A stretch of DNA of 64,000 nt, taken from sequence record OX638288; one strand, 5' to 3'. This DNA is from Escherichia phage UP19. The position numbers and the translations under genes were made by a program. This document shows, in pieces, positions 11,430-52,450 of the stretch. The first letter of the stretch is position 1. Each line of letters opens with the position of its first letter. Under the pieces are notes generated by a model, which had not been told where the DNA came from, made no database searches, and was given only the letters and a program-made list of their open reading frames with translations.

Positions 11430-12079
11430 CGAGTTCGACCTAATGTCCTCCCGGCCTGACCACACATAGACGAAAGTCTAGGAAATCCTAAATCCGGTTT
11501 GATGTCATACCAGTATAATGATATCGAGCCGGCATAGATGTTATCCAAATTAAAAAACGGGCATGAAAACATATACGTGAATTGGGTTTTCTTCTTTGTA
11601 GGAAGGAACACACTTTCTGTACTTGATTCAAAATAGTTCCCGTTAACTCCAGCCATATATTCTACCGACGTTTTGTCAATCGGAAATCCTCCCGTATTTT
11701 TTGCGTCTACCGTTTCCGGTAATTTACCCTCATAAGCTACCATATCCACAAAATAATTCATGTTGGTCGGCCTAAAAGAATATATTGCTGTGAAGTCTGC
11801 GCCTGAAGAAGAATGCACTATTCGGAGCTGCTCGATAGCCGCAATTTTAAATCTATTGTCCTGGTCTTGTCTAATCATTTCAGTATAAGAGGCATAAGTT
11901 GTCTCTTTATAAAAGTTTAGAATATGCTCGCCTTTATACCAAACTAATGCCATAAAGAACAATAATATTACGACTAGGACCCGGGAAAAAACTACTTTCC
12001 CGGAAGAAGTATCTTTAAAAATTCTATCAAGAAGTCCAAAAAGTAGGTCCGATAATGAAAATCCTACTTTTGGTTCCAT
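11426..12079 (-). CDS. t: holin T
   Basis: 217 aa (T4 holin 218 aa); N-terminal TM region plus large periplasmic domain; ...NLDNIYAG...YWY... Confidence 0.9.
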   Translation of the reverse strand: MEPKVGFSLSDLLFGLLDRIFKDTSSGKVVFSRVLVVILLFFMALVWYKGEHILNFYKETTYASYTEMIRQDQDNRFKIAAIEQLRIVHSSSGADFTAIYSFRPTNMNYFVDMVAYEGKLPETVDAKNTGGFPIDKTSVEYMAGVNGNYFESSTESVFLPTKKKTQFTYMFSCPFFNLDNIYAGSISLYWYDIKPDLGFPRLSSMCGQAGRTLGRTR

Positions 12080-12097
12080 ACTTTTCTCCTTTAAAGA

Positions 12098-12105
12098 TAT
12101 TTATA
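12098..12105 (-). promoter_or_regulatory. T4-type late promoter (TATAAATA) for t
   Basis: reverse complement of TATTTATA reads TATAAATA about 20 nt upstream of the AAGGAGA ribosome-binding site and ATG. Confidence 0.6.
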
Positions 12106-12121
12106 ATTTAATACTTTCGTA

Positions 12122-12898
12122 TTATAACCAAGAGCCATAGATAGTGCCTGTCGCGCCCCATGAAGGACTATTACCACTTACAGCAGGCCCTGCAGCTCCA
12201 GGTGGAGACATGGATACACGGCGTCCATAACCCCAGCCGCCTGCAGCGCCTGCGTCACCACCCCAACCGCCACCAAACTGTCCGCCGGCATCCCCGGGAC
12301 CACCAGCCCCAGCATAACTAGCGTTACCGCCAGGTCTATAACTAGTTGCACCACCTAACCCGAATGGTCTGCCACCGCCACCGCCGCAGGTTGAGCCAGA
12401 AGGATAGCTATTTTGCAATGATGTAGCACCGCCACCACCGCCACCACCACAGATAACACCATAGTTCCATATGCGTAAACGCCCACCAATTTCATTATAA
12501 ATTGCTGTACCGCCTTGTTGGCCTCCACCGCCATTGGTTGCGCCATTACCACCGCGTCCCCACATATGAACCCCGCCATGAATATTCAAAGTAACATATT
12601 CGTTAGGGATGTCACTATTCATAAAGAACAATGGAAGGTCTCTAGTATAAGATACTAAATCGCCGGTGATATTAAACACAATAGGTGCAGCGCCGGCTTC
12701 AAAACAACGGTCTCTAAACCAATACCCATTGAAGTTGTGGTCTGCTCCAAGTGTGTGAATTATTTCAACAGACCGACCTACCATATTACTCATCCAAAAC
12801 GGAGCACCCATTCTCAATCGTTGGGCAGCGCCGCCCATCCAATTTTGTCCCGTATTAGCTAATGCAGAAGTTCCTATCCACGGTCCTGCTACTGCCAT
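12122..12898 (-). CDS. 38: gp38 long tail fibre adhesin, T2-type with glycine-rich motifs
   Basis: poly-Gly segments ([22 protein letters not shown]); N-terminus MAVAGPWIG like T2 gp38; start moved to ATG with GGAGG ribosome-binding site (ORF track 12122..12910 starts at TTG). Confidence 0.85.
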
Positions 12899-12930
12899 AT
12901 AAACCTCCAAGGGGCCGGAAGCCCCTCTTA

Positions 12931-15900
12931 TTATTTTAACAATGATTTAACTAAAGCTTTAAGTTCTTCAATCTCTGATTTCAATTCTGCTATTTCGGCA
13001 GTGTGCTCATTGATTGCAGCTGTATTTAAACCAATTACACCGTTATAGTTCAAACGAAGTAAAGCTTCACCATCAGGGTCACCTTCAACCAATTCAGGTA
13101 AAATAGCTTGAACTTCTTGAGCAATTAAACCGGCGTTAGGTTCCCATTTCTGATTACCTTCTTCATCTAGGCCTCGCTTCTGCATATAAGTGTAACCGTT
13201 AATTTTGGAAAGCTTCTCAGAAGCATTTTCAAATTTAACAAGGTCTTTTTTAACGCGAATATCAGAACGGACATAAACATCACGGACAAACGTTGAATAG
13301 TTATCATTTGCCTGAACGAGATGCCCATGAGAAACGATAGCTCTTCCAACTTCCGACCAAAAAGCCCCGGATGAATCCCAAAGCCCAGGATGAGATTGAT
13401 AGCCTGACCCCCAGCTTGCAATATGCACACCATTGGCAACCATGTTAATTCGGCCATCACCGCCATGGGTTAAACCAGTATCATTATCACCGATGGCGAT
13501 AGATGCTCCACCCCATATAGGAATTGTACCTACGCCTAGGTTTACGCTGGCACGTAAACCAGCAGGTGCAACAAAATCACCATTAGACTGAAATACAAAT
13601 ATTGCATTAGGATGGCTTGCATCGCCGCTTTCAGCAGAACCCACACGAATAACAGCAGAACCCCAGGTAGCCGCTCCACCCAATCTAATAATACCGAAGT
13701 CTGCTTTAGTAGAATATCCGTCAGTAACTAGAGTGCTTTTTCCTTTGATAATTGGCATATAACTATCTTTAGGAACGGATTCACCAAAGTCAACGAAATA
13801 AGGAGCTTCTGTTTGCCATTGATTTCCGTAACCATGACCTTGAGTATTAACCCATGCTCGACCGTTAACATACATGCGATAATAATTCATCTGCATTGCT
13901 AAGCCAGTACCGGAAAGTTCTACGTTGAAAGCCCCATCATTAGTGATGTACATACCCGAGTTGGTAGCATAACTGTAAAGAGCTATCCCGTTATCATCGC
14001 CACCTTTACCGACATACCAGTTGCTGGTACCATTTACATCGGAACGGATATGCGAGCTATTACCTGTGGTTGTTTTTAATACTAATGCATCACCAGGAGC
14101 TTCGATAGTCAGCTTACCTGTCATTGTGTCCCCGCCTTTACCAACACGAGTACTCACCGCTGCATCAAGGTTAGTAGCACCACTATACTTGTTCCAAATA
14201 GAACCTGCAATATTACCATCAGTATTCATGAAAGCTGTACCGGCATATAAGCGGTTCAGAGCTATGAAGTTACCATCTTTGGTAAAGCGCCAATATTTTA
14301 ATCCTGTAACATCGCCATCACCATGCAAATCACCTTGAGCAACAATTCGGTATTCGCTCGTAGCGCGGTCCATACCTTGAGTAACAGTTACATTCGAATC
14401 GATATTTTTCTGCTTAGTAATAGGATAAAATGCTTGGGTTGCAGCATCGAGTGCTTGATACAACGGAGCTTTAGTCGTATTCTGGTTGGCATAAGATGCG
14501 CCGTTACTATTAGGGAATTCCAATGCACCATTACCCCTAAAATAAACCTGGTCTGCTTCTAAGTTAGGGATTTTAACCCGGCCCGTGTCTAACATAATAC
14601 TTAATGGGCGTAATGGGCCTAATCCGCCACTTTCGCCGGCATTAACATTGGTTGGGATAATATGCAGCTGGTCTTCTGAATTTCGGAAAATAACACCATA
14701 TTTATCATTCCAAATACGAAGACCACTAGCAGCGCGGACTTTAATTTCATTGGAAACATACAGATTGCGTTTTAAGGATGTATCTTGACTGACAGACAAT
14801 CCTTCGACGATGTTCATCGTGCCGTTTAAATAAGATTCGACTTTACCTGCTGTGGTTCGTTGAATATAGTGCATCCAGCCTGTAGCATCAGATGTTTCCA
14901 ATACGTTTTTACGAGAACCACCTACCGTATTAAAAGTGTCACCCCAACCTTTGAGCTCTATATTATCAACTGAACTATATCCTGAGGTACTTCCTTTAAA
15001 AAGCACAGTGGAAGCGTTACCACGACCGTCAATATTAACCGAACCACCACGGACTTCAACGTTACCAGGAGTAACCAACAACCCACCATCAGTGTTAACG
15101 TTTGTTACACCTTTACCACGGAAATAATGGTGGTATTTACCACTCTGATGATAACCTAAAAGAGTCTGTCCATCACCAAAGCCGTTTTTATCATTAGTAG
15201 TATTAACAATAACTAATGGATAGTTTTGGGTTGTAGGGAGAATTAAATCAGAACCGTTGGTTGAATAACCCGCAACTAACTGTTTAAGGCTTGTAACTTC
15301 AGTAGGAGTTGTAAGTAAAGTATAAGCCCCATTATTAACTGTATGGAACTGGCCGTCTTGTCTCCATTTCAAACCTGTGTTATTGTCGCCAAGTGCGATA
15401 GCAGACGGGCCTAATGTTGAGTATCCTGAGCTATCCCCAGGTAGGCCAACGGAAAGAGAATTTGATGTTTTGACATCTCCATCTGCGTTAAATGACCAAA
15501 GATACTTAGCTGTTCCGGCTGTAGAAATAGAATGCCATGAAATACCATTTACATTATTAAGTTCACGATACCTAATTCCATCGACAGCGTGTCTACTTAT
15601 TCTAAGATAGTTAATAGATGTTGCGCTTGAACTTGCAGGATTATTATTTGCCAATGAAGATATATCATAATCAAGAGCTGATTTATTACCAGTATCAACT
15701 GTATTAGTATAAATTACTGGAGATTTCACCGATGTTCCGCTGGAAATAGACGGAGCATAAAATAAACCGTCGCCGTTGAATGCAAAAATATTAGATGTTG
15801 AATTAGTATAATCCTGGACACGAACGTTCAAGATTTGCTTGGTATTTCCTGGGCGTGATTGTGAATAAATTATGCCTCTTTCACGCGCATCAGCCAAATC

Positions 15901-16272
15901 CTGGAATCGAACGTGGGCGGTTCCTGCACCCCGTACAAGAACTTCACCATTATCTGTCATTAGGCGAGATTTTGCTGTGATATCACCATTTGCTGTTATA
16001 TTTCCGGATGCTACATAACTACCTGTTTGGGTAAAGGTACCCTTTAGGGCGTAATCGCCGGTTTGATTGTAATTACCGTTATGAATAACATTACCATCGA
16101 TATTACCACCTTTGGCAAAACCAAGGTCGATGATGGCGCCGGTGTCATCTTTAGTAAAAAGTAAGCGGTCTTTCAGGTTGATAGCCAGCTCACCTTCAGC
16201 AAGAACTGTTGGCGCCGGACGAACGCCGGCAACCTTACTTCTTTTAAATTGTATTTGTTTTAAAGTAGCCAT
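12931..16272 (-). CDS. 37: gp37 long tail fibre distal subunit with C-terminal intramolecular chaperone-like domain
   Basis: 1113 aa; position between gp36 and gp38; C-terminal ~110 aa resemble endosialidase/S74-type chaperone domain (...[15 protein letters not shown]...). Confidence 0.85.
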
Positions 16273-43798: not shown

Positions 43799-44062
43799 AT
43801 GTTTGTTGTTCATACAATTACTGACGGAACCCCTAAATCCCATGATTACGGAAACGTTAGACAATTCCTTCGATTGAACCCTGTATATTTCCAAGCCAAA
43901 GATGAAGATATCTTTATCCAATGTGTTCGGCGTGGATTTATGTATGTTACTGAATATGATATTAAAGATAAGCGTATTATTTCGTATCACAAAACTTTAA
44001 ATGAGCTTTTAGATGAAGTAGCTTATAATAGAAGTACACAAACTGTAAGGACGGTAAAATGA
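43799..44062 (+). CDS. hypothetical protein
   Basis: ATG after GAGG; in frame with ORF 43766..44062. Confidence 0.45.
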   Translation: MFVVHTITDGTPKSHDYGNVRQFLRLNPVYFQAKDEDIFIQCVRRGFMYVTEYDIKDKRIISYHKTLNELLDEVAYNRSTQTVRTVK

Positions 44063-45582
44063 TTTTAGATATTTTGAACGAAATTGCGGCTATCGATTCT
44101 ACTAAAGCTAAAGAAGCTATTATTGCTCGTGAAAAGGATAACGAGCTTCTGAAACGTGTTTATCGTATGGCTTATACTCGTCGTCTGAACTACGGTATTA
44201 AAAAGTGGCCAGAACCTGGATTTACGTCTCAATCCTTTGGTATGATTACACTTGAAGACCTTCTTGATTTCGCTGAGTTCACACTAGCCACCCGTAAGAT
44301 TACAGGTAATGCGGCTATTGAAGAACTTGCCCAAATTATTGCAGATGCTAAGGGTCCAGACGCTGAGGTACTACGTCGTGTAATGATGCGCGACCTTGAA
44401 TGTGGCGCATCGATTTCTATTGCTAACAAGGTTTGGAAAGGTTTAATCCCTGAACAACCTCAAATGTTGGCTAGTTCTTATGACGAAGCTTTGATTAAGA
44501 AAAATATTAAATGGCCTGCGTTCGCCCAATTAAAAGCTGACGGTGCCCGTTGTTTTGCTGAAGTTCGTAACGATGGCGTAACATTCCTTACTCGTGGTGG
44601 TAATGAATACCAAGGGCTTAATCTTTTGGCTGCTGAATTAATGGCTATGACCGAAGAAGCTAGACAGCGCCATCCTAATGGTGTTATGATTGACGGCGAA
44701 TTAGTTTACCACACTCCTAAAGTAGAACCTAAAGCGTCTAATGATTTGTTTAGTATGTTTGATGAGGAACTTCCTGAATTAAGTAAAGCCAAGGAATTCC
44801 AAACTGTCGCCGATCGTTCTACTTCAAACGGGCTAGCTAACAAGGCTCTTCAAGGAACTATTACTCCAACCGAAGCCGCAGGTATGGTATTACAGGCGTG
44901 GGATTATGTCCCATTGGATGTCGTATATTCCGAAGGTAAAATTAAAGGCGATAAGTATGATGTACGCTTTGCAGCCTTAGAACTTATGGTTGCTCATAAT
45001 GTCGTATTGCATGGTACAACTCGTGTTGAAGCTATCGAAAACCAGTGGGTTAATAATCTTGACGAAGCTAAAGTCGTTTATAAGAAATATGTCGACCAAG
45101 GCCTGGAAGGTATTATCCTTAAGAACATGGACTCCTACTGGGAAAACCGCCGTTCTAAGAATCTTATCAAGTTCAAAGAAGTAATCGATATCGCTTTAGA
45201 AGTGGTAGGTTATTATGAACACTCTAAAGACCCAAACAAACTTGGTGGTGTCGAGCTAGTATCGCGGTGTCGTCGAATTACATCTGATTGTGGTTCAGGC
45301 TTTAAAGATACCACCCATAAGAAAGATAAATCAGGTAAAAAGGTATTGATTCCATTAGAAGACCGCCCTGATTTAGACCGTGAACTTCTTATGAAACAAG
45401 CTCGTGAAGGTAAGTTGATTGGACGTATTGCTGACTGTGAATGTAATGGTTGGGTTCATTCTAAAGGACGTACTGATACTGTAGGTATTTTCCTTCCAAT
45501 TATTAAAGGTTGGCGTTTCGATAAAACTGAAGCTGATACATTTGAAGATGTATTTAGTGATTGGTCTCAAACTGGACTATAA
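44059..45582 (+). CDS. 30: ATP-dependent DNA ligase gp30
   Basis: 507 aa (T4 ligase 487 aa); adenylation motif I KADGAR. Confidence 0.9.
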   Translation: MILDILNEIAAIDSTKAKEAIIAREKDNELLKRVYRMAYTRRLNYGIKKWPEPGFTSQSFGMITLEDLLDFAEFTLATRKITGNAAIEELAQIIADAKGPDAEVLRRVMMRDLECGASISIANKVWKGLIPEQPQMLASSYDEALIKKNIKWPAFAQLKADGARCFAEVRNDGVTFLTRGGNEYQGLNLLAAELMAMTEEARQRHPNGVMIDGELVYHTPKVEPKASNDLFSMFDEELPELSKAKEFQTVADRSTSNGLANKALQGTITPTEAAGMVLQAWDYVPLDVVYSEGKIKGDKYDVRFAALELMVAHNVVLHGTTRVEAIENQWVNNLDEAKVVYKKYVDQGLEGIILKNMDSYWENRRSKNLIKFKEVIDIALEVVGYYEHSKDPNKLGGVELVSRCRRITSDCGSGFKDTTHKKDKSGKKVLIPLEDRPDLDRELLMKQAREGKLIGRIADCECNGWVHSKGRTDTVGIFLPIIKGWRFDKTEADTFEDVFSDWSQTGL

Positions 45583-45583
45583 T

Positions 45584-45754
45584 ATGAAAGCTTATTTAGA
45601 AACAATTGTTGTAACAAACACAAATAACACTGCGGCCTCTCAAATCATCCTAGAGTTTGAGGATGAAATAGCTTTTGCCGATTTTAAAGACGTGTTTGAC
45701 GGCTATGAAAAAGGCCCGACATTCGAAGTATATCGTACGTTGCTACCACTTTAA
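45584..45754 (+). CDS. hypothetical small protein
   Basis: 56 aa; weak ribosome-binding site. Confidence 0.3.
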   Translation: MKAYLETIVVTNTNNTAASQIILEFEDEIAFADFKDVFDGYEKGPTFEVYRTLLPL

Positions 45755-45771
45755 GGCCTTCGGGCCTTTTA
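45754..45771 (+). terminator. hairpin plus short T-run
   Basis: AGGCC-TTCG-GGCCT TTTT. Confidence 0.45.
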
Positions 45772-45804
45772 TGGCATAAATACGGTTATTAAAGAGGAAT
45801 TATT

Positions 45805-47892
45805 ATGACCGAACAATTGAATGAGGTGTTTGAGTCCGAAGGCACCCTGCCTACTGTAAACTTAAACCCAAAACTTAAAGTACCCCAGATTTGGAAGATT
45901 GGCGACGCCGAATCCCAATTAGTTGCTCGTATGGTATCTTATGCCTCTGAAGGCGATGCTATTAAACAGGTTAAATTAGGTGATAAATATGCCCACGTTA
46001 TTTTGATGAGTTTATCAGCTAAAGGTACTCCAGCCGAACTTAAAGGTGGATTAGGCCTTACTCCTATTGATGCTATTAATACCATTTTCGACGTAGTATT
46101 CGAACAAGTTAAAAAGCTTCGTATGGATGCTGTGATGTTCCGTTTTCCAACCAAGAAAATGAAAGGACAAGGACCTATTGTCCAACGGATTATCCAACGT
46201 TTGGTAGCACAGAAAACCGGTGGACGTTTTAAAGTAGTTCCAGCCATGTACCAATTTACCGGTAAACATACTTATATCCTAGTAGTGCGTAAACAAGCTG
46301 ATATCGAAGATATCAAAGGTATGCCTGGAATTAATGCCGAATTATATACTAAGGTAGATTCTGATGTTGGTGAAGTTTATATTTCTAAAAAAGAAGGCGC
46401 TCAGGTTACTAAAGAAACCGCTATTGCCGGCAGTATTGCTAAAGTTGAAGAACGTCGCACTGATAAAATGGTTATAACCAAGACTAAGATTTCTCGTCGT
46501 GCGATTGCGGCAAGCCAGTCATTAGAAGCAGACCGTAATGAAGGTGAATTATTTCAGAAATATGAACAAACTGCCAATGAGTTCAGTGCGCCTGCTACGG
46601 CGGAATTAATTCCACAAGCAGTCGAAGTTGAATTATCATTATCATCCGAAACAGCTAAGGATAAGCTGGCTACGGCTATTGATTTTAAAATTTATAATAC
46701 TATGGATGATTCATTTAAATTTGCGGATGAAGTTTCTTACGGTGATAAAATTAACTCTTCTTTAGAAAAATTTGTCAAAAAAATTAAAAATGAAAAAACC
46801 ACGTCAGTTAAAGCTTTAGCCGCCTTTGTTGAAGCTGCTAATGAAATCGCAGAATCTATTAAAAGTGATTGGTTTGAAGATTATAGAAAAGACAATTTCC
46901 ATTTGGAAAAAGAGATATTGAATGAAAACAGTGAAAGAGTATGGAAACAACGTAAGTCTTCATTCTTGTCTAAGATAATGTATACATACGCTATAGAATC
47001 AACTAGAGAAATTCTTAATATAACAACATCTCGAGACCCTAAACAATATACACTTGCAGAAAAACGAGCTATCAGAGAATACGCCTCTTCAGCTTATATT
47101 GATATTAACAATGTCCTTCTTGGCCGTTATAAACCGGGCTTTTATGAAGTTTTGGACGAAAGCGAAGTTAAACGTGCTATTGATGGAATGGATTCTGCCT
47201 TTAAAAATGGTGACCGTTTACCTGAAGGAATAATGGTTTATAGAGCACAATCTTTGCGCGCGCCTATCTACGAAGCATTAGTTAAAAATAAGGTATTCTA
47301 TTTTAGAAACTATGTTTCAACCTCATTGGCCCCAATCATTTTTGGTGGCTTTAAAGAGAATGCGGCTATTGGTCTTGCTTCCGATGATGTTCGAAAAGAA
47401 TTAAACATTGATAATAATGACGAAGGCGTTACCATCTCGGCTAGTCAAGTGCGTACACATATGTATGCGCCGGATCAAATCCGTGTTGATGTTGGCTGGG
47501 CTATTAGTGGCGCTCATAAGGTTAACGTGATTTATCCTGGCCAATTAAGCATGCATGCCAACGAAAAGGAAATAATTTTACCACGCGGGCTACTTGTAAA
47601 AATAGATAAAATCGTGGATGCATCAGCCAATACTGGTTCTGGGGCGGTGTCTAACAATAAATTTATTCAAGCTGAAGTTATGACATCAGATGAGCTTCAA
47701 GAATCTGTAGTGTATGATGGTGACGTACTAATGGAAACCGGCGAGTTGGTTGTGTATCAAGATGATTTCGATACTTCCGAAAGCCCTGTATCTTTTGATT
47801 CATTTGTTAAATCTACACGGTTTGATGTACTGCCTCTTTTGGCTTCATGCATAGACCTCTATGGCATCCCAGAAAAATTCATCCAAGGGTAA
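45805..47892 (+). CDS. alt: Alt-like ADP-ribosyltransferase (head-packaged), paralog 1
   Basis: 695 aa (T4 Alt 682 aa); ...ELYTKVDSDVGEVYISKK.GAQVTKE.AIAGSIA... and ...FYFRNYVSTSLAPIIFGG... match recalled T4 Alt; R / S-T-S / E-x-E catalytic motif pattern. Confidence 0.85.
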   Translation: MTEQLNEVFESEGTLPTVNLNPKLKVPQIWKIGDAESQLVARMVSYASEGDAIKQVKLGDKYAHVILMSLSAKGTPAELKGGLGLTPIDAINTIFDVVFEQVKKLRMDAVMFRFPTKKMKGQGPIVQRIIQRLVAQKTGGRFKVVPAMYQFTGKHTYILVVRKQADIEDIKGMPGINAELYTKVDSDVGEVYISKKEGAQVTKETAIAGSIAKVEERRTDKMVITKTKISRRAIAASQSLEADRNEGELFQKYEQTANEFSAPATAELIPQAVEVELSLSSETAKDKLATAIDFKIYNTMDDSFKFADEVSYGDKINSSLEKFVKKIKNEKTTSVKALAAFVEAANEIAESIKSDWFEDYRKDNFHLEKEILNENSERVWKQRKSSFLSKIMYTYAIESTREILNITTSRDPKQYTLAEKRAIREYASSAYIDINNVLLGRYKPGFYEVLDESEVKRAIDGMDSAFKNGDRLPEGIMVYRAQSLRAPIYEALVKNKVFYFRNYVSTSLAPIIFGGFKENAAIGLASDDVRKELNIDNNDEGVTISASQVRTHMYAPDQIRVDVGWAISGAHKVNVIYPGQLSMHANEKEIILPRGLLVKIDKIVDASANTGSGAVSNNKFIQAEVMTSDELQESVVYDGDVLMETGELVVYQDDFDTSESPVSFDSFVKSTRFDVLPLLASCIDLYGIPEKFIQG

Positions 47893-47895
47893 ATA

Positions 47896-50019
47896 ATGGA
47901 AAATTTAAACGAGGTTTTTGATAGTGATTCCGCTAAAAACTATCCAGTAACAAATCTTAAACCAGGTTCCGGTATTCCACAGATTTTCTCTATCCAAGCA
48001 CCAGGTAATGATAATCTGGTTGCTCGTATGGTATCTTATGCGTCTCAAGGAGACGCTATTAAAATGGTTAAGCCTGGCGACAAATACGTTCATGTTATTT
48101 TGATGAGTTTGTCTAGCAAGGGTGCTCCGGCTGAACTCAAAGGTGGCCTTGGTTCTGACCCACTTGGTACACTGAATACTATTTTCGATACTGTATACGA
48201 ACAAGTAAACAAACTTAAAATGGATGCAGTTTTGTTCCGTTTCCCTACCAAGAAAATGAAAGGTAAGGGTCCTACCGTTCAGCGTGTATTAGCTCGTTTG
48301 GTGATGGCACGTACCGGTGGTAAGTTTAAAGTTGTCGATGATATGTTCCAGTTTAGTGGTAAACATACATACGTTCTTTTAGTACGTCGTGGTTCTAATA
48401 TCGAAGATATCAAGGGTATGCCTGAAATTGATGCCGATCTTTATACCAAGGTTGAGTCTAAAGTTGGCGAAGTTTATGTTTCTAAGAAAACAGGCCAGGC
48501 CGTAAGTAAGGTCGAAGCCGTAGCGGCATCTATCGCCCAGGTTGAAGAAAAACGTACCGATAAGGCTGTCATCTCTCGTACTAAGATTTCCCGTCGTATG
48601 GCTGCAGCAGCGCAGTATTCTACTTCCGAACCTGAAACTTTATCCCCTAAAGAATTGCAGGTTTATAATGAGTTTGAAGCTTCTGTACCTGTTCATTCGG
48701 CTGAAGGTCCTGAGAACGAAGGTATTGAACAGATTAGCCAGAACTTTAAAAAAGGTGCTATTACTAAAATGCGTCAGGCCTCTCAGTTTAAATCTAAGAG
48801 TGAGGACCTTGCCAACTTTAGATACACCATTGCTCTCACGCACGCTTTAATGACTGATAGTAAATTTAAACTAAATTATGCTAATAGAGATAAACAAGGG
48901 TTTGAAATTTACTCTAATAATATGGCATTTTTTAATACAGAAGTCGATAGACTTTTAAGTGGCCTTTCTCAAATCAATACTACCAATAGTCTGGATATTA
49001 TTAAGAGAATTGTTAATAACCTGAGCGCCCGTTTTCAGGGATCTCCTTCAGAGAAAGCATCCCGAATTGCTTTCGCTATGGAAGCCGTTTATAAACTGAT
49101 TAACGATTCTATTGGCGATGCGTATGCTTATTCAGGTGAGCTCATTAAACCTAAGGGCTTGACTAAAGACGAAAGCAATGCTATTATTGAATATTGCGCA
49201 GCTGAATATGCTCCTATGAACTTATTCCTTTTAGGTAAACCTGAATCCGAAAACAATACAACGGCTATTAAATTGATTAAGGATTTAGACTCAGCATTTA
49301 CTAAGGGTATTAAACTCCCTAAGGGTACTATTTTGTATCGTGGTCAGGATTTGCCATACAAAATTCTGCGTCATAATATCGATAACAAAACATTTTACTT
49401 TAAGAACTTTGTGTCAGCCTCATTAAAGCCTAACATCTTTGGTGAATTCGGTAAAAATTATATGGCCCTCGACAACCAAGCCGTTTTTGTTGGTGGTGAA
49501 GGTTCTTTATCCTCCGCTGATGAGTTGTTTAAATTGGCTAGTGGTAGTTCATCTGATGTGGGTGAAGTCGATGACGAAGAGGTAGAATGGGAAGAAGACG
49601 AGTTTGGTAATCCAATTGCACCTGAAGGCCCTGCAGACAGGATTGCTGAAATCGGTATGGTTATTCGAGGTGCTGAAGCAGTTAAAGTTATCGCTCCTGG
49701 CGACCTTACAGAATATGCTGAAGAAGCAGAAATTATCCTTCCGCGTGGATTATTGATGAAGGTTGATAAAGTAGCGGCTTTTGCTATGAATGATAGGGTA
49801 TCTCACAAATACCTTATGGAAGCTACAGTGACGTCTCCTTCAGAACTCAGTGAATCCGTTTACGATGGCGACCATCTGATGGAAACTGGCGAAGTTAAAT
49901 TGATGAATGGGTTTAAAGAATTCCTAGTTTCAGAATCTGTTTCAGAAAGTAATGAGGCTATGGAAATCCTTGCTGCATCTTTGGACATCTCTTCTTTATC
50001 AAATAAATTCAAAATGTAG
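47896..50019 (+). CDS. Alt-like ADP-ribosyltransferase, paralog 2 (divergent)
   Basis: 707 aa; N-terminal ~230 aa similar to paralog 1; C-terminal ...FYFKNFVSASLKPNIFGEF... and ...EEAEIILPRG...; divergent middle. Confidence 0.8.
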   Translation: MENLNEVFDSDSAKNYPVTNLKPGSGIPQIFSIQAPGNDNLVARMVSYASQGDAIKMVKPGDKYVHVILMSLSSKGAPAELKGGLGSDPLGTLNTIFDTVYEQVNKLKMDAVLFRFPTKKMKGKGPTVQRVLARLVMARTGGKFKVVDDMFQFSGKHTYVLLVRRGSNIEDIKGMPEIDADLYTKVESKVGEVYVSKKTGQAVSKVEAVAASIAQVEEKRTDKAVISRTKISRRMAAAAQYSTSEPETLSPKELQVYNEFEASVPVHSAEGPENEGIEQISQNFKKGAITKMRQASQFKSKSEDLANFRYTIALTHALMTDSKFKLNYANRDKQGFEIYSNNMAFFNTEVDRLLSGLSQINTTNSLDIIKRIVNNLSARFQGSPSEKASRIAFAMEAVYKLINDSIGDAYAYSGELIKPKGLTKDESNAIIEYCAAEYAPMNLFLLGKPESENNTTAIKLIKDLDSAFTKGIKLPKGTILYRGQDLPYKILRHNIDNKTFYFKNFVSASLKPNIFGEFGKNYMALDNQAVFVGGEGSLSSADELFKLASGSSSDVGEVDDEEVEWEEDEFGNPIAPEGPADRIAEIGMVIRGAEAVKVIAPGDLTEYAEEAEIILPRGLLMKVDKVAAFAMNDRVSHKYLMEATVTSPSELSESVYDGDHLMETGEVKLMNGFKEFLVSESVSESNEAMEILAASLDISSLSNKFKM

Positions 50020-50048
50020 TTTACAACACCACAAGGATGTGGTACTAT
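50019..50048 (+). promoter_or_regulatory. early-type promoter in hairpin
   Basis: GTTTACAACACCACAAGGATGTGGTACTATTA. Confidence 0.45.
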
Positions 50049-50076
50049 TACCTTACACAAACATGAGGAGAACATT

Positions 50077-50367
50077 ATGAAATCTGCATTCCGTTTTAAT
50101 GGTCAGGAACTGGTAGTTGAAAACGTTATCCCTGCTTCTGAAGAGTTCGACAGTGCAGTCGGTAATGAATTACGTCGAGTTTTCGGCGAAGACAAACAGT
50201 TCGACTTACGTCCGGTTGAAAATTTTTCACAACCTGAGCAAACCGAAAATATCTTTAATGGCGTAGTAACCGGTCAGCTTGAATCTGAAGCTCCTATTTC
50301 TATCACAGTCTTTGTTAAAAAGCAACCACTAATGACCGCAGCAGGTTTTATCTCGTTCCGTAAATAA
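50077..50367 (+). CDS. hypothetical protein
   Basis: 96 aa ORF with GAGGAGAA ribosome-binding site. Confidence 0.5.
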   Translation: MKSAFRFNGQELVVENVIPASEEFDSAVGNELRRVFGEDKQFDLRPVENFSQPEQTENIFNGVVTGQLESEAPISITVFVKKQPLMTAAGFISFRK

Positions 50368-50373
50368 ACCCCT

Positions 50374-50402
50374 AAAGGAGAGCGTAAGCTCTCCTTTTTT
50401 TG
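50374..50402 (+). terminator. intrinsic terminator
   Basis: GGAGAGC-GTAA-GCTCTCC followed by TTTTTTT. Confidence 0.8.
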
Positions 50403-51356
50403 TTATAACAACCTGGATATTCCATTATTAATAGCACGCCCACCAAACGTATTAACCAATCCGGTCAATCCACTAGAAGCTCCTGAAAGTCTACTTAATT
50501 TAGCTACAGAAGAACTTAATGAGTTACTCTCACTTATGCCTGCTACGCCTTTAAGGACTTTATCTTCCAGCCATTCATAAGCAGCTTGTTTACCAACTGC
50601 ACCCGTCTGTACACTTCTATAAGCAAATGTAACATCAAACGAAGCAATCTGGTTATCGCCATCATAAGATAATTCCGGCGATGAAACACCTACAGGAACA
50701 CATCCATTAAGCATTACTACTGTATGTGGCAATCCATTACGAGAATGAAGGTTGACTTGGATGTCAGCTTCAACATCTTCAGGCAATGCTCTTAATTGTG
50801 TAATAGGGTCTTGGACACTATTGACCCAATCATTAAAAGCACGGTAGTTGGCAGCTTCAGAATCCATGCGGAAGCTTAATACCAATGGAGAATATTCTCT
50901 TCCGGTAATTTTGATATTAGGCGAGTTGTGGTTCAAATCCATTTCATAGTTCAAAGTATTATCCGGAATTTTAACGGCATGGACTAAAAGACCCGCCGTA
51001 GGATAAGCCATATTGAAAAAATCCATCAGATATGTACCTACTTCAAACTCACCTAGTAAGCTCTGCACAACCCTGGATGACATAGCTCCAATCAGATATT
51101 TACTTATACCTGACTTACGAATCAACTTCTGAGTGCCCGCTGTCACTAATGTCGTAACACCTTGGGTTAAATCTCCTTGGGTAATTCCAAACAAATCGGT
51201 ATTCAACGGGATATTGTTAAATAAAGCTCCACCGAACTGGTCGAGGAGCGCTTGGGATTTAGAAGAAGGAACTGTAGCAAATACTACACTAAACAGGTTA
51301 TTCCTTTGTAGGTCAATATTAATTGCCTGGTTTTGAAATTCTTGTAAAGTATACAT
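50403..51356 (-). CDS. 54: gp54 baseplate tail-tube initiator
   Basis: 317 aa (T4 gp54 320 aa); synteny 51-27-28-29-48-54. Confidence 0.8.
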   Translation of the reverse strand: MYTLQEFQNQAINIDLQRNNLFSVVFATVPSSKSQALLDQFGGALFNNIPLNTDLFGITQGDLTQGVTTLVTAGTQKLIRKSGISKYLIGAMSSRVVQSLLGEFEVGTYLMDFFNMAYPTAGLLVHAVKIPDNTLNYEMDLNHNSPNIKITGREYSPLVLSFRMDSEAANYRAFNDWVNSVQDPITQLRALPEDVEADIQVNLHSRNGLPHTVVMLNGCVPVGVSSPELSYDGDNQIASFDVTFAYRSVQTGAVGKQAAYEWLEDKVLKGVAGISESNSLSSSVAKLSRLSGASSGLTGLVNTFGGRAINNGISRLL

Positions 51357-52450
51357 TAGAATCCTTCCGTATAAAGTGAGCCACGGTTCAAAGTAATGAT
51401 TTCACGGAAAGTAACTTCTAAACTAAACGTGGATGGTAAGTTAGGAGCAATAGCCAAACCATTAAAATGTCCATCAGGAGTTTTATCAAATCGTATACTT
51501 TGGATTTGGCACGGTCCAAAAATATCTTCACGTCCGTCATATGAACTTGTATTACCAAAGTTTCGAATATACCAAATAGTTGGGTTACTTACCACAATAA
51601 CATTAGAAAGGAAACTTGTGATACCTTCTCCTAATAGCTTACCATCAAAGTTATCAATAGCTTCTTTTTTAAACGTGGAACGGTACCATGTATCAATCTT
51701 CTCTTTTAATTCGCCGGCGAAGGCAGAGTTGCCTGTTTCACCATAAGAATAGTAATTAAAGATTTCATATATTTTAATAATCTGAATAAGGTCTTGGGCG
51801 TTTCTAGGGGTCATTTCCCAAGTGAATACCTTAGTACGGTTATCTGGCCCTGCATACATACTACGTGCGGTTGTGTATATTTGCTCACCAGAATCGGCCA
51901 TTACACCGTTAGTTACAGATTCCAATGCACCAAATACAGCAGTACTGGCAACGTTACTCAAAATACCCGTAGCAGTACCACCACCTTTAGTGATTAATGA
52001 TTCGCCTACATCATTAAATTTATGCGTAACCGAATCAACATCAGATTTAGAACGTGGGAGCAAAATATTGGCTAAAGCCTGGCTATCAAATTTAACTCCT
52101 TTAGAGTTGTTACTAAACAGGTTTTTAACAGCACTGAACCCACCGGTATTACCGGTAAGTTTACCTGCAGCTTTTGAAAACTTTTTAGTCATTTGGCTCG
52201 AGCGGTCGTTACGTAAATCAGGTGATACGCGAGAGCTAAAATTATATGCCGTAAAAAGTAATCCATTTTTATATAAATCGTTTAACACCATATCTGTAGA
52301 GGTATCATTGCCCGAGGCCCTTTCGGCTGGATACTGGGCAGTTACCGTAGTTTGGGCCGGTTTAGCTTTAGATTGGCCTGCGGAGGTTTTTGAACCTCCT
52401 TTAAATAAGGAGGCTACGTCAATGTCAATTTCTTTTACTTTCATTATCAA
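51356..52450 (-). CDS. 48: gp48 baseplate tail-tube junction protein
   Basis: 364 aa (T4 gp48 364 aa); synteny. Confidence 0.8.
   Translation of the reverse strand: MIMKVKEIDIDVASLFKGGSKTSAGQSKAKPAQTTVTAQYPAERASGNDTSTDMVLNDLYKNGLLFTAYNFSSRVSPDLRNDRSSQMTKKFSKAAGKLTGNTGGFSAVKNLFSNNSKGVKFDSQALANILLPRSKSDVDSVTHKFNDVGESLITKGGGTATGILSNVASTAVFGALESVTNGVMADSGEQIYTTARSMYAGPDNRTKVFTWEMTPRNAQDLIQIIKIYEIFNYYSYGETGNSAFAGELKEKIDTWYRSTFKKEAIDNFDGKLLGEGITSFLSNVIVVSNPTIWYIRNFGNTSSYDGREDIFGPCQIQSIRFDKTPDGHFNGLAIAPNLPSTFSLEVTFREIITLNRGSLYTEGF

What the first reader, a model, noticed from the sequence alone, without database searches (positions are those of the whole stretch)
45805..50019. Two tandem, divergent Alt-type ADP-ribosyltransferase paralogs
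Adjacent 695-aa and 707-aa ORFs share an N-terminal ~230 aa (presumed capsid-targeting and core region) and a C-terminal ADP-ribosyltransferase signature (YR...FYF(R/K)N(Y/F)VS(T/A)SL.P.IFG...E.EIILPRG). Their central regions are strongly divergent. T4 carries a single alt at this locus. Duplication with divergence of an injected effector suggests target diversification, for example different host proteins or host ranges.
Basis: partly seen in the sequence, partly recalled or inferred. Interest (0 to 1): 0.55.

Follow-up and report, generated by a model that had tools for sequence, protein, structure and literature searches.

The report
Known tandem Alt ADP-ribosyltransferase genes (altA/altB)
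The two adjacent genes are real, intact copies of the phage-injected enzyme Alt, but this pair is already annotated in the near-identical phage JS98 and is the normal state in most T2/T4-type phages, with T4 the exception because it deleted most of its second copy.

Summary
Window 45805-47892 (695 aa) and 47896-50019 (707 aa) encode two full-length Alt-family ADP-ribosyltransferases, 41% identical overall. By region the identity is 66% (N-terminal 238 aa), 14% (middle), 38% (ART domain).

Both keep the catalytic Arg, S-x-S and E-x-E residues. Both also keep the two prohead-protease cleavage motifs mapped experimentally in T4 Alt.

It is not new. The window is a JS98-like Dhakavirus (97% nt identity), and JS98 annotates the genes as alta/altb. 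The Alt duplication in JS98 and Bp7 is already noted in the literature.

The pair is old and common:
- AltB is the positional ortholog of T2's second alt.
- 402 T2/T4-like records carry that gene intact.
- 91 records carry T4's ~1.7-kb deletion, whose stub is T4 alt.-1/alt.-2.
- Some Dhakaviruses have three copies.

So "T4 has one alt" describes a derived loss, not the norm.

One addition from this analysis: the locus is modular. The N-terminal module and C-terminal propeptide follow genus and gene slot, while the middle+ART portion (~aa 245-615) is swapped as a cassette with sharp breakpoints.

Different targets for AltA and AltB are plausible but untested. Interest is low.

The parts
45753..45768 (+). 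Stem-loop AAGGCC-TTCG-GGCCTT immediately after the alt.1 stop codon. It is conserved upstream of alt in T4, T2, Mosigvirus and Bp7.
   Evidence: Sequence; five-genome alignment with GGCCTTCGGGCC invariant.
45775..45782 (+). CATAAATA, the positional homolog of the canonical late promoter TATAAATA upstream of T4/T2 alt. It is the likely late promoter for an altA-altB transcript. The Shine-Dalgarno GAGG lies at 45794-45797.
   Evidence: No exact TATAAATA occurs here. Promoter function is inferred, not shown.
45805..47892 (+). altA: 695-aa Alt-family ADP-ribosyltransferase, 99.7% identical to JS98 alta. Catalytic residues are R480, S505/S507, E587/E589.
45805..45825 (+). AltA predicted N-terminal propeptide (MTEQLNE). 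The LNE-7 motif is homologous to the T4 Alt ITE-6 gp21 cleavage site.
   Evidence: Alignment, motif list, T4 site from PMC5694885. Cleavage in this phage is inferred.
45826..46518 (+). AltA N-module (aa 8-238): an alpha/beta domain plus linker helices, net charge +11. It is 95-98% conserved among slot-A genes of Dhakaviruses whatever the cassette. Presumed prohead-core incorporation and delivery module.
46519..47040 (+). AltA all-helical middle domain (aa 239-412), 14% identical to the AltB middle domain. Presumed target-selection domain.
   Evidence: no Pfam hit.
47041..47703 (+). AltA ART catalytic domain up to the predicted C-terminal cleavage site LQE-633.
46540..47660 (+). Swapped cassette (AltA aa ~245-618, approximate breakpoints). 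Against JS10 and Bp7, nucleotide identity drops from >=90% to 42-70% inside this interval and returns to >=92% after it.
   Evidence: Sliding-window DNA identity. This explains the 85% coverage rows.
47704..47889 (+). AltA predicted C-terminal propeptide (aa 634-695). It is homologous to the 63 residues removed from T4 Alt at LTE-619 and contains the conserved YDGDxLMETGE motif.
   Evidence: It clusters by genus and slot like the N-module.
47896..50019 (+). altB: 707-aa Alt-family ADP-ribosyltransferase, equivalent to JS98/JS10 altb and a positional ortholog of T2's second alt (48% identity). Catalytic residues are R482, S507/S509 (S-A-S), E610/E612. Its start lies 3 nt after the altA stop, with AAGGG as a Shine-Dalgarno sequence.
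47896..48615 (+). AltB N-terminal propeptide (MENLNE, LNE-6) plus N-module (aa 7-240), 66% identical to the AltA N-module.
48616..49152 (+). AltB all-helical middle domain (aa 241-419), 46% identical to the T2 alt2 middle domain and 14% identical to that of AltA.
49153..49854 (+). AltB ART domain up to the predicted cleavage site LSE-653.
49516..49650 (+). Acidic, predicted-disordered insert in the AltB ART domain (aa 541-585; 16 D/E and 2 K/R; pLDDT <50 for 551-579). It lies between the S-x-S strand and the strand leading to E-x-E. It is present only in Dhakavirus AltB among the close relatives examined.
49855..50016 (+). AltB predicted C-terminal propeptide (aa 654-707), ending ...KFKM as in T2 alt2.

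Best explanation
altA and altB are the two standard Alt-family genes of a JS98-like T-even phage (genus Dhakavirus). The most likely mechanism has five steps. (1) Both are transcribed late as one unit from the conserved hairpin and (C/T)ATAAATA element upstream of altA. (2) Both proteins are built into the prohead core through a shared basic N-terminal module and terminal propeptides. (3) The gp21-type prohead protease trims them at LNE-7/LQE-633 (AltA) and LNE-6/LSE-653 (AltB). (4) They are stored in the head and injected with the DNA. (5) They then use NAD+ to mono-ADP-ribosylate arginine residues of host proteins; the E-x-E motif is the arginine-specific type. AltA belongs to the clade containing T4 Alt and T2 alt1, whose known main target is RNA polymerase alpha Arg265. 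AltB belongs to a separate, old clade with T2 alt2. Its unrelated helical middle domain and different ART-domain loops suggest a different target set. The pair predates the Dhakavirus/Tequatrovirus split, and T4 lost most of its AltB-type gene. Shown here: gene integrity, family membership, conserved catalytic and cleavage motifs, ART fold (predicted), orthology, distribution and cassette replacement. Inferred: timing of expression, packaging, cleavage, injection, enzymatic activity and target differences.
For: Family, motifs and fold. Identity with the annotated JS98 alta/altb. Orthology: AltA vs T2 alt1 48% and vs T2 alt2 32%; AltB vs T2 alt2 48% and vs T2 alt1 32%; trees. Four-fold-site identity of AltB vs T2 alt2 is 30-47%, at the saturated genome baseline, which fits vertical descent. 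T4 remnant. Prevalence: 465 of 1221 Alt-bearing records carry an AltB-type C-terminal part; 402 are intact against 91 with the deletion junction among T2/T4-like records. Cleavage motifs are homologous to the sites mapped by mass spectrometry in T4 Alt, which is present at 40 copies per head (PMC5694885; PMC9026906). Late-promoter homology. The Mosigvirus Alt, 73% identical to AltA, was detected in virions by mass spectrometry (PMC6563131). T4 Alt E577A, the second Glu of E-x-E, is catalytically dead (PMC11404850), and that Glu is invariant here.
Against: There is no experimental evidence for this phage or for any AltB-type protein: no packaging, cleavage, activity or target data were found in the searchable literature. 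AltB has S-A-S where more than 90% of relatives have S-T-S, and it carries a 45-residue acidic disordered insert in the ART domain; either could alter activity. The promoter box is CATAAATA rather than the canonical TATAAATA. Target divergence is inferred only from sequence and predicted-structure divergence.
Confidence: 0.85

Rival explanations
1. This is a recent, lineage-specific duplication of alt followed by rapid divergence in this phage.
For: The N-terminal modules of the two window genes are more alike (66%) than either is to its cross-genus ortholog (42-47%). The genes are tandem and 3 nt apart.
Against: AltB-type middle, ART and tail regions group with T2 alt2, and AltA-type regions group with T2 alt1, T4 alt and Mosigvirus alt. 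The pair occurs in 402 T2/T4-like records and in every Dhakavirus locus examined. Four-fold-site identity between the two N-modules is 46%, close to the saturated baseline of 26-40%, so there is no recent duplication or conversion.
Confidence: 0.04
2. AltB is a catalytically inactive, purely structural head-core paralog (a pseudo-enzyme), and only AltA is an active effector.
For: AltB has S-A-S instead of S-T-S, a large acidic disordered insert within the ART domain, and a weaker Pfam ART score split into two stretches (66 vs 100 bits). T4 does without this gene. Alt is described as having a structural core role as well as a catalytic one (PMC11404850).
Confidence: 0.07
3. The two copies are functionally redundant. 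Both modify RNA polymerase alpha Arg265, and two genes simply raise or buffer the injected dose.
For: Both have the same arginine-type E-x-E active site and the same delivery module. T4 Alt itself is non-essential and promiscuous (PMC2988021; PMC9026906). T4 tolerates loss of the second copy.
Against: The middle domains are unrelated at 14% identity, and the ART domains are only 38% identical with different loop insertions. Each type has been maintained separately across genera for a long time. Slot A is replaced by alternative cassettes rather than homogenised with slot B. T4's own tandem ART pair ModA/ModB has distinct targets (PMC2988021; bioRxiv 2021.06.04.446905).
Confidence: 0.15

Closest known systems
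alta / altb of Escherichia phages JS98 and JS10 (GenBank EF469154, EU863409; genus Dhakavirus)
   Same: Same locus: 30 - alt.1 - altA - altB - alt.-3 - 54 - 48 - 29. Nucleotide identity is 97% to JS98. AltA is 99.7% identical to JS98 alta, and AltB is 98% identical to JS10 altb.
   Different: Essentially nothing relative to JS98. Relative to JS10, the altA middle+ART cassette (aa ~245-618) is a different type.
Bacteriophage T4 Alt (gpAlt, NAD+--arginine ADP-ribosyltransferase; injected internal head protein)
   Same: Same family (PHROG 802, PF03496 plus PF26846 'Tevenvirinae_ADPRT'), same genome position, same R-S-ExE residues, same N- and C-terminal gp21 cleavage motifs, and the same upstream hairpin and late-promoter element.
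   Different: Identity to T4 Alt is only 43% for AltA and 33% for AltB. T4 Alt's middle+ART cassette is a third type, shared with the second alt gene of Bp7 (61%/78%). T4 has one intact gene plus the alt.-1/alt.-2 stub.
Tandem alt pair of phage T2 and most Tequatroviruses
   Same: Two full-length tandem genes (697 and 685 aa) in the same slot order. T2 alt2 is the ortholog of AltB (48%; same ...KFKM end; middle 46%, ART 59%).
   Different: The N-modules are genus-specific (42-47% across genera). T2 alt2 lacks the long acidic insert.
T4 ModA / ModB (tandem early ART paralogs)
   Same: They are tandem R-S-E ART paralogs in a T-even phage with documented different target spectra. This is a precedent for paralog specialisation (PMC2988021).
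   Different: Mod proteins are small, expressed early and not packaged. They lack the Alt N-module, the middle domain and the propeptides (PMC5512222).
C3-like / VIP2-like / Vis bacterial R-S-E ADP-ribosyltransferase toxins
   Different: Sequence identity is 13-26%. Those toxins are delivered by secretion or binary-toxin pores, not through a phage head. There is no Alt N-module.
T4 internal-protein (IP) locus with its capsid targeting sequence, and polymorphic-toxin architecture
   Same: A conserved targeting or delivery part is joined to variable injected cargo. The review notes that the CTS may let T4-like phages package varied proteins (PMC9026906).
   Different: In Alt the conserved part is a ~230-aa folded module plus a C-terminal propeptide, not a 10-aa CTS. 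The cargo is almost always an ART of one family. This is an analogy only.

Membership tests
Tevenvirinae Alt (injected RNA-polymerase ADP-ribosyltransferase) | R-S-ExE catalytic residues of the Alt/VIP2 ART clade (Arg; S-x-S; E-x-E) | tested here: met
   AltA has R480, S505/S507, E587/E589. AltB has R482, S507/S509, E610/E612. The Ser and both Glu are invariant and the Arg more than 90% conserved in the 75-sequence alignments. AltB has S-A-S rather than S-T-S.
Tevenvirinae Alt (injected RNA-polymerase ADP-ribosyltransferase) | ART fold of the C-terminal domain | tested here: met
   [not shown]
Tevenvirinae Alt (injected RNA-polymerase ADP-ribosyltransferase) | Full-length architecture with the Alt-specific N-terminal module (PF26846 Tevenvirinae_ADPRT; PHROG 802 end to end) | tested here: met
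   PHROG 802 matches 1-694/674 and 1-707/674 at E = 1e-256 and 6e-251. Homologs carry PF03496 plus PF26846.
Tevenvirinae Alt (injected RNA-polymerase ADP-ribosyltransferase) | Genome position between DNA ligase gene 30/alt.1 and alt.-3/baseplate gene 54 | tested here: met
   Ligase lies at 44059-45582, alt.1 at 45542-45754, alt.-3 at 50077-50367, and gp54, gp48 and gp29 on the minus strand.
Tevenvirinae Alt (injected RNA-polymerase ADP-ribosyltransferase) | gp21 prohead-protease processing at both termini (T4: ITE-6 and LTE-619) | tested here: inconclusive
   Homologous (L/I)xE motifs are present at aligned positions in both proteins: LNE-7/LQE-633 and LNE-6/LSE-653 (T4 sites from PMC5694885). 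Actual cleavage cannot be tested with these tools.
Tevenvirinae Alt (injected RNA-polymerase ADP-ribosyltransferase) | Packaged in the head (~40 copies in T4) and injected with the DNA | not testable with these tools
   Support is indirect only: virion mass-spectrometry detection of the 73%-identical Mosigvirus Alt (PMC6563131), and a late-promoter homolog upstream.
Tevenvirinae Alt (injected RNA-polymerase ADP-ribosyltransferase) | NAD+-dependent ADP-ribosylation of RNA polymerase alpha Arg265 and other host proteins | not testable with these tools
   Known for T4 Alt only (PMC2988021). No data were found for AltB-type proteins.
GNAT-fold acyltransferases (considered for the N-module) | GNAT fold plus the acetyl-CoA binding motif A (Q/R-x-x-G-x-G/A) | tested here: not met
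   [not shown]

The most novel reading that the evidence does not exclude
The alt locus of T-even phages may be a recombination-driven array of one to three injected effectors. A genus-specific delivery frame, made of the N-module plus the C-terminal propeptide, would also serve as homology arms. It would carry interchangeable middle+ART cassettes that move within and between genera and presumably hit different host targets, possibly defence proteins. At least six cassette types occur among nine phages. Supporting points: sharp breakpoints at AltA aa ~245 and ~618 in otherwise >=92% identical Dhakavirus loci; an ART domain shared between JS10 altA and T2 alt1 at 94% aa and 70% four-fold-site identity against a 26-40% baseline; and rare N-module proteins with no detectable ART. 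I found no description of this modular exchange in the searchable literature, but that library is incomplete.
Probability: 0.4. Interest if true: 0.45.

Novelty: already known. Interest (0 to 1): 0.18.

Why it matters
As stated, the finding adds nothing to the public annotation: alta and altb have been in GenBank since the JS98 genome, and the duplication is mentioned in print. Two points are of modest value. First, T4, the model for all Alt biochemistry, is a natural near-deletion of the AltB-type gene that about 80% of its close relatives keep, so the function of a widespread injected enzyme has never been studied; comparing T2 with T4 offers a ready-made test. Second, the cassette structure of the locus suggests that injected ARTs are exchanged like other host-range or counter-defence determinants. 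That could guide searches for their targets.

Tried and rejected

2. Recent gene conversion between the altA and altB N-modules. Four-fold-site identity is 46% against a saturated baseline of 26-40%, so there is no convincing signal. The within-genus similarity is old, or reflects co-evolution with head-core partners.

3. Purifying selection alone as the cause of the 94% ART identity between JS10 altA and T2 alt1. Rejected because four-fold-site identity is 70% there, against 25-40% in the flanking modules and neighbouring genes.

4. Separate promoter or terminator signals inside or between the two genes. Sigma-70-like hits are no more frequent than in shuffled sequence (12 vs 14.1), and none is positioned for altB.

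5. An exact TATAAATA upstream of altA. There is none; the homologous box is CATAAATA.

6. Database searches that returned nothing. NCBIfam gave no hits and a single-sequence PDB search gave none.

7. Non-ART cargo on the N-module. P0172, P0176, P0171 and P0174 lack Pfam or PHROG ART matches. However, P0172 has no PDB relative and sits on a 4.7-kb metagenome contig, so this remains a lead only.

8. Literature on AltB-type function or on cassette exchange. Nothing was found.


Full report
OBSERVATION

BLASTP aligns them end to end at 41% identity, E = 6e-151. By region the identity is 66% for residues 1-238, 14% for 239-412, 38% for the ART domain 413-620 and 40% for the C-terminal tail.

Both match Pfam PF03496 (ADPrib_exo_Tox; 1.3e-28 and 3.3e-18). 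Both also match the full length of PHROG 802 'Alt-like RNA polymerase ADP-ribosyltransferase' (E = 1e-256 and 6e-251).

WHAT THE WINDOW IS

Megablast of 44000-51400 finds Escherichia phages EcWhh-1, MN04 and JS98 at 97% identity over 100% of the query, so the window is a JS98-like Dhakavirus (Tevenvirinae). In JS98 and JS10 the two genes are annotated 'alta' and 'altb', within the order 30 (ligase) - alt.1 - alta - altb - alt.-3 - 54 - 48 - 29. The window has the same order. AltA is 99.7% identical to JS98 alta (H41), and AltB is 98% identical to JS10 altb (P0001).

The literature already records the duplication. Jin et al. 2014 state that duplication of the Alt gene is present in Ac42, JS98 and Bp7 (PMC4177764). 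Nolan et al. 2006 list T4 alt.-1/alt.-2, and ORFs of RB49 and 44RR, as paralogous duplications of alt (PMC1524935).

IS THE PAIR UNUSUAL?

No.

- T2 has two full-length tandem alt genes, of 697 and 685 aa, at the same locus.
- T4 alt.-1 (61 aa) and alt.-2 (67 aa) are 96% identical to residues 1-56 and 62-116 of T2's second alt.
- At the DNA level T4 keeps the first ~348 nt of that gene, with 7 gap positions, and its last ~20 nt. It lacks the ~1.69 kb in between.
- A probe across the T4 deletion junction is matched contiguously in 91 phage records. An internal probe from T2 alt2 is matched at >=80% coverage in 402 records.
- tblastn with the AltB-specific part (aa 241-707) finds >=80% coverage in 465 of the 1,221 Alt-bearing phage records.
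- KIT01, WG01 and other Dhakaviruses carry three tandem copies.
- Mosigvirus (RB69-like) and several Klebsiella-phage groups have one.

The tandem pair is therefore the majority state in Tequatrovirus and is universal in the Dhakavirus loci examined. T4's single gene is a derived loss.

ORTHOLOGY AND MODULARITY

Cross-genome identities define two old lineages. AltA matches T2 alt1 at 48%, T4 alt at 43% and Mosigvirus alt at 73%. AltB matches T2 alt2 at 48%. The cross pairs are about 32%.

Module-wise analysis of 16 genes from nine phages gives three results.

(a) The N-module (1-238) and the C-tail (621-695) cluster by genus and gene slot. Dhakavirus slot A is 95-98% identical internally and slot B 87-98%. 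Slot A against slot B is ~66%, T2 alt1 against alt2 is 68%, and Dhakavirus against T2 is 42-47%.

(b) The middle+ART part falls into discrete types that ignore those groupings. Figures in brackets are middle / ART identity.
- alpha: window AltA, KIT01 copy 1, Mosigvirus alt (68% / 80%)
- beta: JS10 altA, Bp7 alt, WG01 copy 2, T2 alt1 (65-67% / 94%)
- gamma: T4 alt, Bp7 alt' (61% / 78%)
- delta: window AltB, JS10 altb, KIT01 copy 3, WG01 copy 3, T2 alt2 (46% / 59%)
- two singletons: KIT01 copy 2 and WG01 copy 1

(c) Against JS10, nucleotide identity across the locus is >=90% up to ~46,540. It falls to 42-70% through ~47,640 and returns to >=92% afterwards. A ~1.1-kb cassette (AltA aa ~245-618) has therefore been replaced inside an otherwise near-identical locus, which explains the '85% covered' rows. 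In Bp7 the altB cassette (48,567-49,982) is replaced as well.

Among 75 database homologs there are 37 pairs with N-modules >=85% identical but cassettes <45% identical. One N-module cluster is combined with six cassette clusters.

Synonymous-site control. JS10 altA against T2 alt1 shows 70% identity at four-fold sites in the ART domain. The values are 25-35% in the N-module, middle domain and tail, and 26-40% in ligase and gp54. The ART domain was therefore exchanged between the genera after they split; it is not merely conserved. Window AltB against T2 alt2 is at baseline (30-47%), consistent with vertical descent. The two window N-modules show 46%, so there is no evidence for recent gene conversion.

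ANATOMY

AF2 models were built from 75-sequence alignments. AltA has mean pLDDT 82 and AltB 78, with pTM 0.70 for both. They agree on the layout:
- an alpha/beta N-domain (~13-200) followed by linker helices to ~240
- an all-helical middle domain (~248-412)
- an ART domain (~417-630 in AltA)
- a poorly predicted tail

Catalytic residues are retained: AltA R480, S505/S507, E587/E589 and AltB R482, S507/S509, E610/E612. The Ser and both Glu are invariant across 75 homologs. T4 Alt E577A, the second Glu of E-x-E, is inactive (PMC11404850).

AltB deviates in two ways. It has S-A-S instead of S-T-S. It also has a 45-residue acidic, disordered insert (aa 541-585; 16 D/E), which is absent from the 72-74%-identical relative P0002 and from the T2-like relatives.

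The N-module is basic (+11 in both proteins). It has no Pfam or PDB sequence relative. It is a narrow family: 71 representatives among 1.84 billion proteins, always at the extreme N-terminus, nearly all 600-712 aa. It corresponds to the precomputed Pfam family PF26846 'Tevenvirinae_ADPRT'.

MECHANISM

T4 Alt is a prohead-core protein present at 40 copies per head. It is injected with the DNA and ADP-ribosylates RNA polymerase alpha Arg265 and other proteins (PMC2988021; PMC9026906). Mass spectrometry showed that gp21 removes 6 N-terminal residues at ITE-6 and 63 C-terminal residues at LTE-619 (PMC5694885).

In my alignment the same positions carry LNE-7 and LQE-633 in AltA, and LNE-6 and LSE-653 in AltB. 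The Glu at the C-terminal site is conserved in more than 90% of homologs. The 'C-tail module' is therefore essentially the C-terminal propeptide. The exchangeable cassette is the effector part of the mature protein.

Upstream of altA lies a GGCCTTCGGGCC hairpin followed by CATAAATA. This aligns with the canonical late promoter TATAAATA of T4 and T2. altB starts 3 nt after the altA stop, behind an AAGGG Shine-Dalgarno sequence, and no better-than-chance promoter or terminator separates the two genes.

I infer the following sequence: co-transcription late in infection, co-incorporation into the prohead core, trimming by the protease, injection, and arginine-specific ADP-ribosylation of host proteins. 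AltA-type and AltB-type enzymes probably select different targets through their unrelated middle domains and different ART loops. Packaging of an AltA-type protein is supported indirectly by virion mass-spectrometry detection of the 73%-identical Mosigvirus Alt (PMC6563131). Nothing experimental was found for AltB-type proteins.

RIVALS

- Recent local duplication is contradicted by the cross-genus orthology and the saturated synonymous sites.
- AltB as a pseudo-enzyme is unlikely given the conserved active site and long-term retention, but S-A-S and the acidic insert keep it open.
- Redundancy, with both copies acting on the same target, cannot be excluded.

COMPARISON AND NOVELTY

These are members of the Tevenvirinae Alt family by every sequence-testable criterion. 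Processing, packaging and activity could not be tested here. The finding as written is already known.

What this analysis adds is modest. T4's alt.-1/alt.-2 are specifically the stub of the AltB-type ortholog. The pair is the majority state among T4's relatives. The locus behaves as a frame-plus-cassette system. I found no paper describing that modular exchange, but the searchable library is incomplete.

VERDICT

A real feature, correctly described, ordinary and already annotated. Interest 0.18.

Noticed in passing
L003:4556-4941 (T4 alt.-1, alt.-2) compared with L004:6101-8158 (T2 second alt): T4's two tiny ORFs alt.-1 and alt.-2 are the frameshifted first ~116 codons of the AltB-type gene, 96% identical to T2 alt2. 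A ~1.69-kb deletion removed the rest. 91 phage records share the deletion junction and 402 keep the gene intact.
   Followed up: yes
window 50077-50367 (alt.-3, DUF5498/PF17602), with an early-like promoter TTTACA-17-TACTAT at 50020-50048 and a terminator at 50374-50397: The gene just downstream of altB is the ortholog of T4 alt.-3. In T4, C-terminal extension mutants of alt.-3 escape the CmdTAC defence system by stabilising CmdA (bioRxiv 10.1101/2024.02.24.581662). It appears to have its own early-type promoter, separate from the alt genes.
   Followed up: partly
P0172 (1142 aa; locus L009:552-3980), P0176 (541 aa), P0171 (485 aa), P0174 (347 aa): These metagenomic proteins carry the Alt N-module at their N-terminus but have no detectable ART domain in Pfam or PHROGs. 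The remaining 200-950 residues match nothing. They may be non-ART cargo on the same delivery module, or fragments or misassemblies.
   Followed up: partly
[not shown]
   Followed up: partly
window 49516-49650 (AltB aa 541-585): A strongly acidic, predicted-disordered insert (16 D/E in 45 residues) sits inside the ART domain between the S-x-S strand and the E-x-E strand. It is present only in Dhakavirus AltB among the close relatives examined. Its function is unknown.
   Followed up: partly
L002:5397-7442 (KIT01 middle alt copy) and L008:2309-4204 (WG01 first alt copy): Some Dhakaviruses carry a third tandem alt gene with a cassette type seen nowhere else in my sample. The KIT01 copy combines a slot-B-type N-module (90% identical to AltB) with an A-type C-terminal end.
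   Followed up: partly
window 12000-14000, minus strand (ORFs 12122-12910 and 12931-16272): The only compositional outlier in the window (GC 0.448, GC skew -0.19) is the C-terminal part of the distal long tail fibre gene (gp37-like, 1113 aa) plus the gp38-type adhesin (262 aa). A holin gene lies next to them. This is ordinary for T-even phages.
   Followed up: yes
window 1-64000: ARAGORN detected no tRNA genes in the window.
   Followed up: yes
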